A stretch of 64,000 bases of DNA, from positions 6,882,001 to 6,946,000 of the forward strand of contig NC_088857.1 in assembly GCF_963853765.1 (NCBI RefSeq), in the 5' to 3' direction. This DNA is from Magallana gigas. Lineage: Eukaryota. Shown piece after piece: positions 14,511 through 58,100 of the stretch (position 1 is its first letter; every line of letters starts with the position of its first letter). Position numbers: made by a program.

Positions 14511-17500
14511 ATTTTTCCGTTCTACCCCAACAATCAAAAATTGTTTTTGAGTAGAAGGCAAAAATAAAGGGGCATATCCGAAACCAAAACTTCACCAAAA
14601 GTAACACTTCGCCCGATCATATATTTCCTTATCGGTTTTGACCCAATTTTCTCTTAATCTCCTTGACCTTAATTCAACCTGATTTGTGTCTGCGATAGAA
14701 TTATTTTTTCAATACGATTTGTAGCCGAAGCTCTGACTTGTTTAAAATCATGTACTGAACTAATCCCAATGCTTAGAAAATGTTACACTTACTACGAAAG
14801 TAACGCTCTATCACGTGACGAAGTGGATTTTTTTTAATGAATGAATCTCTTTCTTGTTGTTTGTTGTTATTTGATTGGCGGGAAAAAGCCTCACATGTTC
14901 AACGTTTATATCAAGAGGGCTCTCAAATGTCAAAATTACCGTATATCTGAAACATAAAAAGAACACTTATAGCTTAATCAATTCAAGACGTTGATAATTA
15001 TTATTAAATTGAGTTTCAATTTAAAATCAATTCATTTTTCCCTCTATTCCTCCTTGTGAAGGACATCTTTCGATGACTACATGCCAAGATTTCGTACTAG
15101 TCACACCAAACGGATTCAATGGCAACAAATGGAGGGGAACATACTTTAATTTTTTTTTTTTCGTTTGTCAAAATGGATTTTGATTTAATTGTCAGATTTT
15201 ACGCACCATAATCTACAATCGTCCCCATTAAGCAGATCACTAGTCAAACAGATAGAGAACACCTTACACCACGTGTGTAGTGCTTTAAACGCAGTGCATT
15301 TGTACTTAATTAGTACTAATGTATGTAGGTAATCACGATTTCTGTATACTTAAGAGCAATGAAGACAAATTTCGTTAAAATTGTACAAAACTTACAAAGT
15401 TGTACGAAACAGTGTTTAACACTCAAGTGAAAATCAAATATAGTTGAATATGAGTGTCAAGGTCTCAATTTATTTTATGTAAAAAATGGGCTGTAGATAG
15501 AAACATGTACGAGTATTTGATGATTTTAATGAAACTATTATATACAGTTTATATATACAGTGGTCCTCGCTTTGGATACTAGTAGTCCAATATATACGTC
15601 TTTTACTTCAAATTATTTACATTTAATTTAGACTGAAATTTCACCGGAGTTTTGGAATAAAAATAATGTTGATGTAATTTTTCATGTACCAATAATTTAC
15701 AATATTTTAATTTTTTAAGTCGTCACTTTGTAATGCGTATGATAATATTGTCGCACTCAAAAACATGTTGTTTACTACCCTTTGTCTACTGCTGGGTGTG
15801 TAAAGCTTTCCCAAAATCTAAATTTGTTTTACAAGAGACGCAATACAGTTTGTAGTTATCTGTAAGTCGGCCATAATCATTGACCCTTGTAAATCCTTTT
15901 ATTGACGACAGCTAGCTATCTTTCTTTTGTACAGGATGGTTTTGTAGCTATTTTTAGAAGCTGCTAGAAATTCTGCTAATGTAAGATTTTTTATATTGCG
16001 TTTCGCAAGACAATCCTAGAATGGTGTTAATTGTTTAAGTGACCTACATGCATAATTAATAATGACTGAATGATATAACCTAATACTACTATAATAGACA
16101 GCACCACCACCCATCATTAATTTCTTAAAGTAATTAATAAAGCATTAATTTCCTCCTCATTGTATAGAAATACCGAACCACTAAATGTGACAAGCCTTTT
16201 CCTTGTTTACAGTTTTGTCACAAGGATGTAAAAAAGTCGCACCCACAAAAGCTTCCATTAACAGTAACAAGAATGTTGGATCTTACTTGATGTATGCATA
16301 AAAGCTAACTCTCAGAGCCTGTGTGTTTACCACAATGCTTACTGACCTTCTCGAGGACCGTATGGCCCGGTTTTGTCGCATTCGGATATTTGTAGATACA
16401 TTTATATTACGATGAACGTTTTCAGGGAACGAAAATTTGTAGTGTTTTCTATCATGTTAATGATATTTCATTTTCTGCAGTGTCGGTACTATGTTTAGAA
16501 CGATTTTACAAAATCATTTTATAGGGAATGTTGTCATTGGTTGATACCTTGTTTCTGTTATAATAAGATAATTTCTGAAATTTGTGTGACACAAAATTTT
16601 GTTAACGTGTATATATATTTATTCATATGTTTTGATATAAAAATAATAATCAACTAGACGTTAGATGCCAAAGAATACTTTTAACAGATATTTAACTTAC
16701 TGATTAAGATACATGTGTCATATTAATGAGCAATTATGTTTATCAGATAAATTGGATGCATGGATATTTGATTTTTAAGAATTCCTTCTAAAAAGACCCC
16801 CTGGAGACAGGTACATATGACGTCATCAAAGGAGGCAGGAACCTCAAACTTCGGTGACTGCAAAGGAATGTTGTTATCAGTGTAAACTCAGAATATTATT
16901 GGTTTCTTAAAAGGCCTGTTATAGGTCAACACAATCGTTTCGGTTTTCAAACTTTTTTCTCATGGTCATAAACAATTTTAATAAATAAAAATCGGAATGA
17001 TAAAATGTCCTTATAAATCATACAATGAACATGAATATGATAACAGTTGCTATATTAGGTATGAAAGATTTGAAATAAACAATGAAACTTTTATTTCTCA
17101 GTAGATCTTATATTTGTTAAAGTATCAAATTTAAAAAAAAAAAAAACCAAACAAAATAACTATCTTTCAAAGAAAACGGCGAATCCTACAAAGGAATGAA
17201 ATCAAAGGTCGATTTTCTCACATTTTAATTGTTAACATATTTTGATTGATCAACATAAGCCATCTTTATTGCCTTTGCTCTCTATCACCAGTAAACAGAT
17301 TTTAAAAATTCAAATATTTCGTAGGAAAAGACATTTTCAAATGTTAATAAGGCCTAAAAAAAAATAGTTTGTTTAGGGTAACACTGATGAAAAAAATTGG
17401 TTAGGTAGGTGGGGATTTTTTTTTATTTTATCTATTTGTTTTGCCTGAATCCTAAGAATGTTTGTTTGTTTCATATTTAAAAACGTATTTTTTATTGGAA

Positions 17501-55172: not shown

Positions 55173-58100
55173 GTGTCAGCAAGTGTTTGATCAACATTAA
55201 TCAACGTTCAAATTATAATTTCTGAAAAATATTCTTTGAGAGCATAAAAGTAATTGGCTTATTTTCGTCTTATAAAAGAGGTCTGCTTTATGATAGAACG
55301 ATAACACAATGTCTAACCCAATGACTTGCTATGTCTGTAAACAACATAGTTCGTACAATGTAATGACCTATTACTGAGAATTTTCAATGAATGAATATCT
55401 TACTTGTTGATCTTGCTAATACACTTGTGGGAGTGACGGGAGAACTTGACACAAAAGGTTCTAAGCTGACAAAACTGTATCTGAAATATAAAAAGGACAC
55501 AATGAATTTAATATAAAAGATATTTATAAACACCATAACAACGGTATCTAATCCTTGATTGTAATGTCGAAAAAAAATATAAATATGAAAAAGAGAACAT
55601 CTTAAATATGATGACCATGCTTCTTGATATTTGTATATGGAGATGCACATACAACTCATTCTTACTAAGTTTTGATAAATGTACTTAATTTATCCATAAC
55701 CTTTTTTTAAAAAAAAGCCCATGCCAGGGATAAGGAAAGAAAATGAAACAAAATGTAGGGAAGTAGTACAGAAAAGTTAAATACTTATGTGAAAGTGAAA
55801 TGTTATTTAATTGTCACGTTCTCAATTCATTATAAACCACACTAAAAGTAAACCACATTAAAAGCGAAGACTTCAAGAAATCATTGTGTACATTTTAACT
55901 ATACAAAACTTTTTTTCAAATGTTACATATGCTGGTATCAGACTCTTTCTTCAAAACGTATAAAATTTTTAATCAATTGGATTTATATAATTCAGTATCC
56001 CTTTTTTAATTTATTTCTTTAATTTGTGTTTTTGAGTTGTTTAAAACACTAATAATGACTAAATATTTCATATTTTGTTTATAAAAAAACCCCTTGTAAC
56101 AGATTTGTTTTAGCTGTTGTATAGTTAGCTTTTCCGATGCCTTTCTTCCGTTAAGAAAAAGGTTGATGTTGAAACAAATTCAACAAATAAACCTTTTTTT
56201 TTATTTTTAGCATGACTTTGGAGTGTGGTCTTCTTTTGCAAAAGCGTTTTGTTGGTTACGCAAAACATATACCATGGTCTGAGAATCATTCTTTGTTAAC
56301 TACATTTGATTCAAATAACACTTTCACATACGCTTCCATATGCTTTGTGCGTTTTATGAAACTATGTTAAAAATATCTCTATAAACACCACGCCAAATAA
56401 AGTAATCGAAATACCCAATCCTTCAAAAATTATTTATAGGGATCTGTGATGCTAATCAAATTACACAATTGTGTTGCAAATTAAGCGTTCTTTTAAATAT
56501 ATTAAGACTAATATTTCTTACTTGATTTATCTTAGACTTAATGAGCTTGTTTTCAGAGTCTTTGTATGCTACAGTGCTTAGTTAACACGCAGATCGGGAC
56601 CCCAATATTGAGTTCATAACTCATATGTTTATACTCTATCCATCGTTTTAGGAAAACGAAAATTGTAGTTGATGTCTTTTATTTTAACGTTTTTCACTAT
56701 ATATAAAAATGACAAAAGAGATTATGTTTAATAAACTTCTGTTTGTCATATTTTTGAGTGAAAGGCTATTTATATAAAGGTCCTATATAATAATTGGAAT
56801 GCTACATACTTATTAGAAAAAAGTCTTTTTCCTACCACAACAATAAATGATATGAATAATAATGTTTTTCATATAGGTTCAAATTACATGCAGAATTATC
56901 ATAGTAGCAGAATTTGCAGCAAAAATAAATTCTAATATACAGTTCATATTGTTTAATATGTACTTTAATTATCAATGCCCACTGCTATAGGTTAAATGGC
57001 GTGATCGACTAGTAACACCATGTTGAGATTGTTGACTGAATGTTAATGTTTGTAGTTTGAATTTTTATTTAGAATTGCTTTGTCGGGAAGAATTTTATTC
57101 CTGGTAGTAATGGGATATACGTATCATTTGACCTATTGGTCTTTTTAAAATACTTGGAAAGATAAACTTGATGTTAATTTATCTGATAAAATGTGCGTTA
57201 GATGATGTTTGACAACAAATGTAATTTTCCTATTGAGGCAAAACAGTTTTAAAGATTATAACTTCATAGCTTATTTCATAAAATTTTGGAAGAATCCTCT
57301 CTGTGTTTACGGAACAAAAAATAATTGGATGCTTGACAAAACTACACTAAGTATACACTGAGTATACATGAAGGGATTTCTAAAAAACCACCTAACAAAA
57401 TGTCAAATATGAACGAGGAACACAATTTTGCATTTATTTTTCCTCAAAATAGCGTATGTATTGATATCTTGATTAGAAATGAAAATTATACGAAGAGTAC
57501 GACTCTTATATGAGTACAATTCTATGTTATAATATTTGAAATATTTTTTCTTTGAACATACTATTTACTTGGTTTTTTTTCGCTACAGTCCAAATGTGAG
57601 AGTCCCGGTTTAAAAAAAAACCCACTTATCTAAGTATATTGATTTAAAAAAAGAAGAGGAAAAAGCTTAAGTTGTAAACATGTCTTATGTCATAAAACAG
57701 TTCCGTTTATGGTTATATTTTAAGATGTCTATCTTTTGCTTTGCCCATATTCATGGTGTTAATCATGTGTGCAGAATGGAGTTGTTACAAAGGAAATCTC
57801 TTAGGCGTTAAAATTTGAACATAGTTCGAAGAATTCAGCGTTCAGTTCGTCGGAAACTATCAAAAGCATTTGTCGTCCTCGTTTTTTTTCTCATTGTAAT
57901 CTGTAAATACTAATTAAAATGGATGAGTGATAAGACAAGTAACTGATTGTTTCATACGCCAATGTTCCCCAAATATTCACACATTATGAGATAACCATGA
58001 CTATCATCTATATAAAAACATTAATTTCATGTTCGTCAGCACATGAGGGTTGCTTTCGAGTAAATAAAATATATTCAAGTGAAAAAGCGCGAGCGCACTT

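What the first reader, a model, noticed from the sequence alone, without database searches (positions are those of the whole stretch)
14854..55480. One small exon present 13 times with splice sites preserved while reading frames are broken
Minus-strand copies lie at 14854-14946, 17987-18074, 21235-21322, 27617-27677, 30426-30509, 32020-32103, 35386-35458, 38079-38161, 40921-41004, 44351-44423, 46486-46568, 49290-49373 and 55404-55480. All 13 keep AG and 12 keep GT, but lengths are 61-93 nt and eight are not multiples of three. Several copies are recent duplicates, so they are not independent. The pattern fits long selection followed by decay, or continued splicing as non-coding RNA, possibly into alternative 5' leaders of the same-strand AZI2-like gene, whose first exon I could not locate.
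[Added by the scan's program, not by the reader: the finding's places include an assembly gap (unread letters, written N; its length is only estimated) at 37496 to 37627. Whether the letters on both sides are continuous or in frame is not known: test that first.]
Basis: partly seen in the sequence, partly recalled or inferred. Interest (0 to 1): 0.65.

Follow-up and report, generated by a model that had tools for sequence, protein, structure and literature searches.

The report
Thirteen tandem copies of non-coding exon
Upstream of an immune-adaptor-like gene in an oyster-like bivalve, a roughly 3-kb stretch carrying one short exon-like piece has been copied 13 times, and only its two splice borders stayed similar, so it looks like a redundant, partly decaying array of non-coding exons.

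Summary
A profile search finds exactly 13 homologous copies, all on the minus strand. AG precedes 13 of 13 and GT follows 12 of 13. Lengths are 61-93 nt, and 8 are not multiples of three.

The 13 copies represent about six old lineages. A C-B-A block of 7.8-9.0 kb was triplicated recently, and D was duplicated.

Across the six lineages, the only conserved part of the 2.8-kb units is about 215 nt. Identity peaks at the acceptor border (0.58) and the donor border (0.72), against a background of 0.27. The middle of the exon is no better than background. That is the footprint expected of an exon.

I found no support for a coding origin, a conserved RNA fold, an intronic small RNA or a shared docking site.

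Three results weaken the exon reading:
- Most donors are weak, and only 2 of 13 match the consensus at 7 of 9 positions.
- Equally good pseudo-exons arise by chance 51-59 times per strand.
- Recent duplicates show no significant constraint.

Best reading, at 0.45: non-coding cassette exons that were selected in the past and are now redundant and decaying. No RNA data or genomes of related species were available, so transcription and any link to the downstream gene are untested.

The parts
55404..55480 (-). Copy F (A-type, old lineage), 77 nt. Acceptor TTTCAG plus a second CAG 6 nt in; donor CAA|GTAAGA.
   Evidence: core 55352-55558, E 1.4e-33; 14-nt tract before the acceptor 12/14 pyrimidines, donor 7/9: one of the two best copies.
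49290..49373 (-). Copy C3, 84 nt; donor GTAGGA.
   Evidence: core 49240-49515; 10/14, 6/9.
46486..46568 (-). Copy B3, 83 nt; acceptor AAG; donor GTAAAA. The exon folds into a stable hairpin.
   Evidence: core 46431-46710; -23.3 kcal/mol, z -3.76.
44351..44423 (-). Copy A3, 73 nt; donor GTACGA.
   Evidence: core 44304-44570; 12/14, 6/9.
40921..41004 (-). Copy C2, 84 nt; donor GTAGGA.
   Evidence: (core 40866-41146).
38079..38161 (-). Copy B2, 83 nt; acceptor AAG; donor GTAAAA. Stable hairpin.
   Evidence: core 38024-38303; -24 kcal/mol, z -4.36.
35386..35458 (-). Copy A2, 73 nt; donor GTACAA (weak, 5/9).
   Evidence: (core 35338-35606).
32020..32103 (-). Copy C1, 84 nt; donor GTAGGA.
   Evidence: (core 31965-32245).
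30426..30509 (-). Copy B1, 84 nt; acceptor AAG; donor GTATAA (weak, 5/9).
   Evidence: (core 30371-30650).
27617..27677 (-). Copy A1, 61 nt; donor GTAAGA.
   Evidence: core 27569-27825; 12/14, 7/9: one of the two best copies.
21235..21322 (-). Copy D2 (B-type, old lineage), 88 nt; acceptor ACAG behind a poor pyrimidine tract; donor GTTAGA.
   Evidence: core 21180-21465; 7/14, 6/9.
17987..18074 (-). Copy D1, 88 nt; differs from D2 at 3 of 88 positions.
   Evidence: (core 17932-18212).
14854..14946 (-). Copy E (A-type, old lineage), 93 nt. Good acceptor, but the donor GT is lost (GAAAGA). It is the copy nearest the downstream gene.
   Evidence: (core 14800-15085).
27213..51731 (-). Three head-to-tail copies of a C-B-A block with a period of 7.8-9.0 kb, 88-95% identical.
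   Evidence: for example 38350-42208 with 46712-50562 at 95%; 31897-34807 with 40798-43705 at 93%.
37496..37627 (.). Assembly gap in the spacer between copies B2 and A2. It is not part of any copy.
   Evidence: N run; flanks collinear with both paralogous blocks.
1435..4445 (-). Downstream same-strand gene, 675 codons. The exon with the start codon is 4445-3631 (ATG at 4420). The second coding exon runs from 2672 to the stop at 1437-1435. It encodes a coiled coil plus two TAX1BP1-type zinc fingers.

Best explanation
A unit of about 3 kb that carried one short non-coding internal exon was amplified head to tail on the minus strand. An old round of amplification gave three unit types (A, B, C) and their old relatives E, F (A-type) and D (B-type). 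More recently, a C-B-A block was triplicated and D was duplicated.

Between the old lineages almost everything has diverged to 54-62% identity. The exception is about 215 nt: a candidate branch site, a pyrimidine tract and AG on one side, and the last ~50 nt of the exon, the GT and about 16 nt of intron on the other. I read this as the footprint of past selection for exon recognition, not for a protein or a folded RNA.

The exons most likely act, or acted, as optional cassette exons in the long 5' part of a minus-strand transcript. That transcript is either the 5' leader of the downstream adaptor-like gene or a separate long non-coding RNA. The array is now redundant. Copies drift at about the local rate, most donors are weak, and copy E has lost its GT.

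Shown here: the duplication history, the conservation pattern and the absence of coding or structural signals. Inferred: transcription, splicing, and the link to the downstream gene.
For: - There are exactly 13 homologous copies, all in one orientation.
- Whole units are homologous over 1.5-2.7 kb at 54-62% identity, while cores reach 72-77%.
- In a six-lineage alignment of 2.8-kb units the core is the only conservation peak.
- Mean pairwise identity against a background of 0.26-0.27:
  - acceptor region 0.58 (0 of 3677 background windows reach it)
  - donor region 0.72 (0 of 3721)
  - 3' half of the exon 0.49 (0 of 3671)
  - middle of the exon 0.39 (436 of 3731 reach it)
- Every lineage keeps an AG within a 6-nt window even though its position moved.
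- No other AG lies within at least 19 nt upstream of any acceptor.
- A CTGAT/TTGAT-type candidate branch site sits about 30-38 nt upstream (the consensus is recalled).
- The known introns of the neighbouring gene use the same style of sites: TTGTTTCAG|A and AG|GTGAGT.
- No competing function was found: no Rfam family, no consensus fold, no Pfam match for 5 of 5 exon peptides.
Against: - There is no RNA evidence of any kind, and no orthologous locus could be examined.
- Splice-site quality is mediocre. The donor reaches 7/9 in only 2 of 13 copies, and B acceptors are AAG. Acceptor-donor pairs of the laxer grade (tract of at least 10/14 pyrimidines, donor at least 6/9, 55-100 nt apart) occur 59 times on the minus strand and 51 times on the plus strand of this window.
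- Conservation after the donor runs to about +16 and is as strong as at +3 to +6, which is more than a donor needs.
- Recent duplicates show no significant constraint. The fraction of equal-width windows with as few changes is, for groups A, B, C and D in turn:
  - acceptor: 0.069, 0.54, 0.12, 0.16
  - exon: 0.78, 0.66, 0.17, 0.083
  - donor: 0.79, 0.61, 0.41, 0.21
- The background identity in the multiple alignment is probably underestimated, because the diverged flanks align poorly.
Confidence: 0.45

Rival explanations
1. The conserved ~215-nt core is not an exon. It is a cis-regulatory or protein-binding module, or is otherwise kept similar by local gene conversion, and each unit of a kilobase-scale tandem repeat carries one. 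The AG and GT are incidental.
For: - Pseudo-exons of similar grade are common by chance (59 on the minus strand, 51 on the plus strand).
- Conservation extends beyond the donor to +16 and about 90 nt upstream of the acceptor.
- In the D pair the low-divergence block runs from -20 to +100 past the donor (8 changes in 208 nt), ignoring the exon border.
- Recent copies show no splice-specific constraint.
Against: - The two identity maxima coincide with the two splice borders, and the dip lies in the exon body, where a 27-nt deletion is tolerated.
- When the first AG was lost in B and D, a second AG 6 nt away was kept.
- No specific binding motif is conserved in all six lineages. An extended nuclear-receptor half-site upstream of the donor fits only 5 of 13 copies, in 3 of 6 lineages (the motif is recalled).
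Confidence: 0.25
2. Each core is a promoter plus a short non-coding first exon, forming a cluster of alternative first exons that each splice from the shared donor motif to a common downstream acceptor such as 4445. The upstream 'acceptor' is then a promoter element.
For: - A TATA-like motif (GATATAAA, GATTTAAAT or GCTATAAG) lies 50-60 nt before the donor in lineages E, D, B and C.
- The conserved footprint, roughly -140 to +40 around a start site placed inside the 'exon', has the size of a core plus proximal promoter.
- The donor is the best conserved element.
Against: - The TATA-like stretch is deleted in lineage A and absent in F, which are the lineages holding the best splice signals.
- A pyrimidine tract followed by CAG, with no other AG for at least 19 nt upstream, is what an acceptor needs and not what a promoter needs.
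- No CpG- or GC-rich promoter-like peak lies at the cores.
Confidence: 0.17
3. The copies are decayed coding exons. They would be relics of a tandemly duplicated small gene or of a repeat-encoding exon array, with frames since broken.
For: - One homologous frame is open in E, D1 and D2 and gives a similar peptide (PLD[IL]NV.HVR), recognisable with stops in B and C.
- A phmmer search with the 51-residue D1 frame against 1.84 billion representatives gave 4 hits at E <= 1e-3.
Against: - All 4 hits are internally repetitive proteins matched on 4-7 stretches at 33-39% identity. They are unrelated to one another (a bacterial-type adhesin repeat, an Ig-like repeat and two low-complexity repeats). The scores are therefore chance similarity multiplied by repetition.
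- Pfam gave nothing for 5 of 5 peptides at E <= 10.
- All 3 D1-D2 differences are non-synonymous.
- A 29-30-codon open frame has roughly a 1-in-8 chance per frame in this composition (my estimate).
- No other conserved block that could be a second exon is shared by all lineages.
- A pseudogene would not keep the borders better than the body.
Confidence: 0.08

Closest known systems
Tandem arrays of non-coding host-gene exons around intronic small RNAs (SNORD116/SNORD115 units in the SNURF-SNRPN transcript; C19MC-type miRNA arrays)
   Same: Kilobase-scale units repeated head to tail, each with a short non-coding exon whose body is free to vary. PMC11267527 (passages read) describes 30 and 48 tandem snoRNA copies processed from a long non-coding host, with flanking non-coding exons.
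   Different: No intronic payload was found here:
- no Rfam family
- 0 box C/D candidates on either strand
- no hairpin at -24 kcal/mol or better, apart from the B2 and B3 exons themselves and one site at 26411-26500
- no second conservation peak shared by all lineages

H/ACA snoRNAs were not specifically searched.
Tandem exon duplication giving mutually exclusive exon clusters (Dscam1-type, with docking and selector pairing)
   Same: Homologous exons in tandem on one strand, each with its own acceptor and donor, plus conserved intronic sequence next to each exon.
   Different: - The exons here are non-coding and vary from 61 to 93 nt, so no reading frame is maintained.
- No shared docking site was found. 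The best pairing partners of the 13 post-donor segments scatter over different places on both sides of the array.

The Dscam mechanism is recalled, not read.
Clusters of alternative untranslated first exons (the NR3C1 exon 1, GATA4 and CYP19 type)
   Same: Several non-coding 5' exons upstream of one coding exon that has an acceptor just before the ATG. Here that acceptor is at 4445 and the ATG at 4420. Papers of this kind appeared in the listing (PMC2795200, PMC3390360, PMC8067493; listing only, not read).
   Different: In those clusters the first exons are usually not homologous to each other and need no acceptor. Here all 13 are homologous and carry acceptor signals.
Kilobase-unit tandem repeats (macrosatellites such as DXZ4 and D4Z4) and the repeated exons of the long non-coding RNA Firre
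   Same: Units of about 3 kb in one orientation, with a small conserved module in each unit.
   Different: Old units here are only 54-62% identical, so they are not homogenised. Copy number is low. This comparison is recalled and no paper was read.

Membership tests
Internal (cassette) exon of a spliced RNA polymerase II transcript | 3' splice site: branch site, pyrimidine tract and AG | tested here: met
   AG in 13 of 13 copies. In the 14 nt before the acceptor (the tract scored), 10 of 13 copies have at least 10 pyrimidines. The residue before AG is C in 10 of 13 and A in the 3 B copies. No other AG lies within 19 nt upstream. A candidate branch motif sits about 30-38 nt upstream.
Internal (cassette) exon of a spliced RNA polymerase II transcript | 5' splice site: GT with a usable consensus | tested here: inconclusive
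   GT in 12 of 13 copies. Match to MAG|GTRAGT is 7/9 in 2 copies, 6/9 in 8, 5/9 in 2, and the GT is lost in 1.
Internal (cassette) exon of a spliced RNA polymerase II transcript | Conservation focused on the splice borders | tested here: met
   Identity is 0.58 at the acceptor, 0.72 at the donor and 0.39 in the middle of the exon, against a background of 0.27.
Internal (cassette) exon of a spliced RNA polymerase II transcript | Exon-exon junctions seen in RNA | not testable with these tools
   No transcript or read collection for eukaryotes was available. Protein-level proxies found nothing.
Small-RNA host-gene array (SNORD116/115 or C19MC type) | A conserved snoRNA or miRNA in the intron of each unit | tested here: not met
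   H/ACA snoRNAs were not specifically searched.
Mutually exclusive exon cluster with docking/selector pairing | Equal-phase coding exons and one docking site complementary to a selector at each exon | tested here: not met
   Lengths are 61-93 nt, with 8 of 13 not multiples of three. No common pairing partner was found. Only the 34 nt after each donor were tested as the selector.
Spliced-leader RNA genes | A short, nearly invariant leader exon with a donor but no acceptor, an Sm site, and small tandem units | tested here: not met
   Exon bodies differ strongly between lineages. No Rfam match of any kind was found in the repeat region. No uridine-run Sm-like site is conserved after the donor (the motif is recalled).
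Cluster of alternative first exons with their own promoters | A promoter and transcription start at each exon | tested here: inconclusive
   A TATA-like motif is present in 4 of 6 lineages and is deleted or absent in A and F. Start sites cannot be tested here.
AZI2/TBKBP1/TANK adaptor family (the neighbouring gene) | TBK1-binding domain and the N-terminal coiled coil of the family | tested here: inconclusive
   Pfam at E <= 0.1 lists no TBK1-binding-domain family. Residues 41-77 match an AZI2 fragment (5z7g) at E = 0.026. The C-terminal fingers match TAX1BP1 at E = 3e-4 and PF18112 at E = 4e-8. The nearest named relatives are 'uncharacterized' Saccostrea proteins at 52-53% identity.

The most novel reading that the evidence does not exclude
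The array is alive. Up to twelve homologous non-coding cassette exons would be spliced in varying combinations into the 5' leader of an innate-immunity adaptor-like gene. Selection would act on splice signals and on a YCAY-rich element just after each donor, present at +10 and/or +14 in 12 of 13 copies. Inclusion would add tiny upstream reading frames, with an AUG followed directly by a stop in 6 of 13 copies. The number and choice of exons would then tune translation of the adaptor.
Probability: 0.1. Interest if true: 0.55.

Novelty: new member of a known kind. Interest (0 to 1): 0.33.

Why it matters
If the copies are really spliced, this would be a clear invertebrate case of tandem duplication of a non-coding exon, where selection can be read directly from the sequence: the borders are kept and the body is free. 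It would also point to a long, variable 5' leader for a TBK1-adaptor-like gene in a bivalve. If the copies are not spliced, the locus is an ordinary old tandem repeat with a conserved module. It then serves as a warning that AG...GT pairs of this quality are common in AT-rich DNA.

Tried and rejected
- **Intronic small-RNA payload.**
  - The Rfam E-value scan of the whole window gave one weak plant-virus hit at 63771-63891 and nothing else.
  - No tRNAs were found.
  - There were 0 single hairpins at -32 kcal/mol or better in 110-nt windows over 12-60 kb on either strand.
  - At -24 kcal/mol in 90-nt windows there were 3, two of which are the B2 and B3 exons themselves.
  - There were 0 box C/D candidates.
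- **Conserved RNA fold of the exon.** RNAalifold on all 13 copies gave 0 pairs. Single folds of 8 of the 13 copies gave z scores of -0.5 to +0.9, except B2 and B3.
- **Docking/selector pairing.** No shared partner was found.
- **Coding origin.**
  - Pfam gave nothing.
  - A tblastn of unit reading frames against other units gave microsatellite noise and DNA-level echoes only (the output was cut, so I saw only part).
  - The phmmer hits were judged spurious.
- **Protein-database proxy for transcripts or orthologues.** The 101-residue frame over copy F had no hit. A first search of the neighbouring gene in the wrong length class found nothing.
- **Finding the first exon of the downstream gene.** The only GC-rich peak between gene and array (11.8-12.2 kb) is full of G and C homopolymers and looks like a dispersed repeat, not a promoter.
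- **Not done.**
  - The prokaryote-only genome collection and the phage, plasmid and E. coli collections were not searched, because they cannot hold this locus.
  - Paper supplements were not consulted.

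
Full report
**Source and context.** The window has 31% G+C, a CpG observed/expected ratio of 0.82 and one N run at 37496-37627.

The only clear gene is on the minus strand at 1435-4445. Its first coding exon begins at 4445 behind a TTTTTTGCTAG acceptor, with the ATG at 4420, and ends at 3631. 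The second coding exon runs from 2672 to the stop at 1437-1435, giving 675 codons.

Searched exon by exon, its closest named relatives are uncharacterised Saccostrea (oyster) proteins at 52-53% identity. Unnamed assembled contigs give 83-98% identity, and the full-length relatives (P0001-P0005, P0007 and P0008) start at the same MEEDI. The window is therefore from an oyster-like bivalve and is not human.

I sent no joined spliced model to any search. The exons were searched one at a time.

The label 'AZI2-like' rests on a weak match. Residues 41-77 match an AZI2 fragment at E = 0.026. The C-terminal fingers are of the TAX1BP1/autophagy-receptor type (PF18112, E = 4e-8; PDB, E = 3e-4).

**The observation.** AG precedes 13 of 13 and GT follows 12 of 13. 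Lengths are 61-93 nt, of which 8 are not multiples of three. A profile of the aligned core finds exactly these 13 copies, all on the minus strand (E 1e-33 to 1e-60). The next best match has E = 0.43.

**Duplication history.**
- Self-comparison shows three head-to-tail copies of a 7.8-9.0-kb block, each carrying three exon copies in the order C-B-A, at 88-95% identity.
- It also shows a D1/D2 pair at about 86%.
- A more sensitive comparison shows that whole units are homologous over 1.5-2.7 kb at only 54-62% identity. A groups with E and F, and B groups with D.
- The 13 copies therefore amount to about six old lineages.
- In the direction of transcription the order is F, then (C B A) three times, then D2, D1, E, then 10.4 kb of unique sequence, then the acceptor at 4445.

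**The assembly gap.** It lies in spacer, 452 nt from copy B2. Its flanks align in order and orientation to both paralogous blocks. The join is collinear, no copy is interrupted and no reading frame is involved. I did not infer its letters.

**What is conserved.** I aligned 2.8-kb units from one representative of each of the six lineages. The only conservation peak is about 215 columns around the exon, and it has two maxima.

| Region | Mean pairwise identity | Background windows reaching it |
|---|---|---|
| Acceptor | 0.58 | 0 of 3677 |
| Donor | 0.72 | 0 of 3721 |
| 3' half of the exon | 0.49 | 0 of 3671 |
| Middle of the exon | 0.39 | 436 of 3731 |

Background identity is 0.26-0.27.

- The exon body tolerates a 27-nt deletion in A.
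- The acceptor has turned over. A, C, E and F keep TTTCAG. B and D lost it and use an AG about 6 nt downstream, which A, C and F also carry.
- This is what selection for exon recognition would leave.
- One caveat: diverged flanks align poorly, so the background is probably underestimated.

**What weakens the exon reading.**
- By a plain consensus count, only A1 and F have good sites (12/14 pyrimidines before the acceptor, donor 7/9).
  - Eight copies score 6/9 at the donor and two score 5/9.
  - E has no GT, and the B copies have AAG acceptors.
- Acceptor-donor pairs of the laxer grade occur by chance 59 times on the minus strand and 51 times on the plus strand of this window.
- Conservation after the donor continues to about +16 (GATTCATTCA) as strongly as within the donor itself.
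  - This could be an intronic enhancer: YCAY occurs at +10 and/or +14 in 12 of 13 copies.
  - The link to NOVA-type proteins is recalled and speculative. The same conservation could equally mean that the element is something other than a donor.
- Among recent duplicates, no region is significantly slower than equal-width windows of the same alignments.
  - The acceptor region comes closest, with window fractions of 0.069, 0.54, 0.12 and 0.16 for groups A, B, C and D.
  - Exon bodies in A and B change at the expected rate.
- In the D pair a low-divergence block of 208 nt (8 changes) runs across the donor into the intron.

**Alternatives tested.**
- *Coding origin.*
  - One homologous frame is open in E, D1 and D2.
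  - All 3 of the D1-D2 differences change the residue.
  - Pfam finds nothing for 5 of 5 peptides.
  - The 4 hits of an exhaustive phmmer search are mutually unrelated repetitive proteins, matched on 4-7 stretches at 33-39% identity. I treat them as chance similarity multiplied by repetition.
- *Small-RNA host array.*
  - There was no Rfam family.
  - There were no C/D candidates.
  - There was no hairpin other than the B2 and B3 exons and one other site.
  - There was no second shared conservation peak.
- *Structured RNA.* There was no consensus fold.
- *Dscam-type docking.* There was no shared partner.
- *Promoter plus first exon.* A TATA-like motif lies 50-60 nt before the donor in 4 of 6 lineages. 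It is deleted or absent in A and F, the lineages with the best splice signals.

**Verdict.**
- At 0.45, the copies are non-coding cassette exons that were once under selection for splicing and are now redundant and partly decaying.
- At 0.25, the core is a non-exonic conserved module.
- At 0.17, it is a promoter plus first exon.
- At 0.08, it is a decayed coding exon.
- Transcription, splicing and any connection to the acceptor at 4445 remain untested.
- The closest known systems are tandem non-coding exon arrays of small-RNA host genes (PMC11267527, passages read), tandem exon duplication clusters, and clusters of untranslated first exons (listing only).

Noticed in passing
window 23808-26114; also 61302-62203 and 62713-63536: A 1152-bp segment is duplicated in tandem at 99.9% identity (23808-24962 and 24960-26114). 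It lies inside the long spacer between copies A1 and D2. 84% relatives lie near the window end. It is probably a young dispersed repeat that duplicated locally.
   Followed up: no
window 14455-14506, 29883-29944, 34857-34942, 43861-43908, 55121-55169: (TC)n microsatellites of 24-43 repeats lie 235-482 nt downstream, in the minus sense, of copies E, B1, A2, A3 and F. A dinucleotide run therefore seems to be an old part of the unit. A (TCTG)21 run lies at 46263-46345.
   Followed up: partly
window 38079-38161 and 46486-46568 (minus strand): The B2 and B3 exon copies fold into a stable hairpin in which the exon's 5' end pairs with its 3' end (-24.0 and -23.3 kcal/mol; z -4.4 and -3.8; 0 of 200 shuffles as stable). 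B1 keeps only the terminal stem, and the other 5 copies folded show nothing. This is a young, lineage-specific structure that would bring acceptor and donor together.
   Followed up: partly
window 16235-16653, 29030-29474, 36720-37240, 45450-46000, 56473-56975, 63917-63996: A second conserved block lies about 1.2-1.5 kb upstream of A-type copies (E, A1-A3, F). E and A are 77% identical over 191 nt there, against about 60% for the rest of the unit. About 80 nt of it recur at the very end of the window at 96% identity to the A3 copy. Array-related or dispersed sequence may therefore continue beyond 64000.
   Followed up: partly
window 11800-12200: This is the only GC-rich peak (0.45-0.47) between the gene and the array. 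It holds long G and C homopolymer runs and looks like a dispersed element rather than a promoter.
   Followed up: partly
window about 3540-3580 (minus strand, intron of the neighbouring gene): A run of about 20 C followed by about 10 A lies just inside the intron after the first coding exon.
   Followed up: no
window 1435-4445 (minus strand): The neighbouring gene combines an N-terminal coiled coil that weakly resembles AZI2 with two C-terminal TAX1BP1-type zinc fingers. Relatives at 83-98% identity occur only in unnamed assembled contigs, and the nearest named ones are Saccostrea proteins at 52-53%.
   Followed up: partly
proteins P0011-P0014: A 51-residue query from non-coding DNA reached E = 2e-8 against 1.84 billion proteins solely by matching 4-7 repeats inside repetitive proteins. 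This shows how short queries can give misleading E-values.
   Followed up: yes
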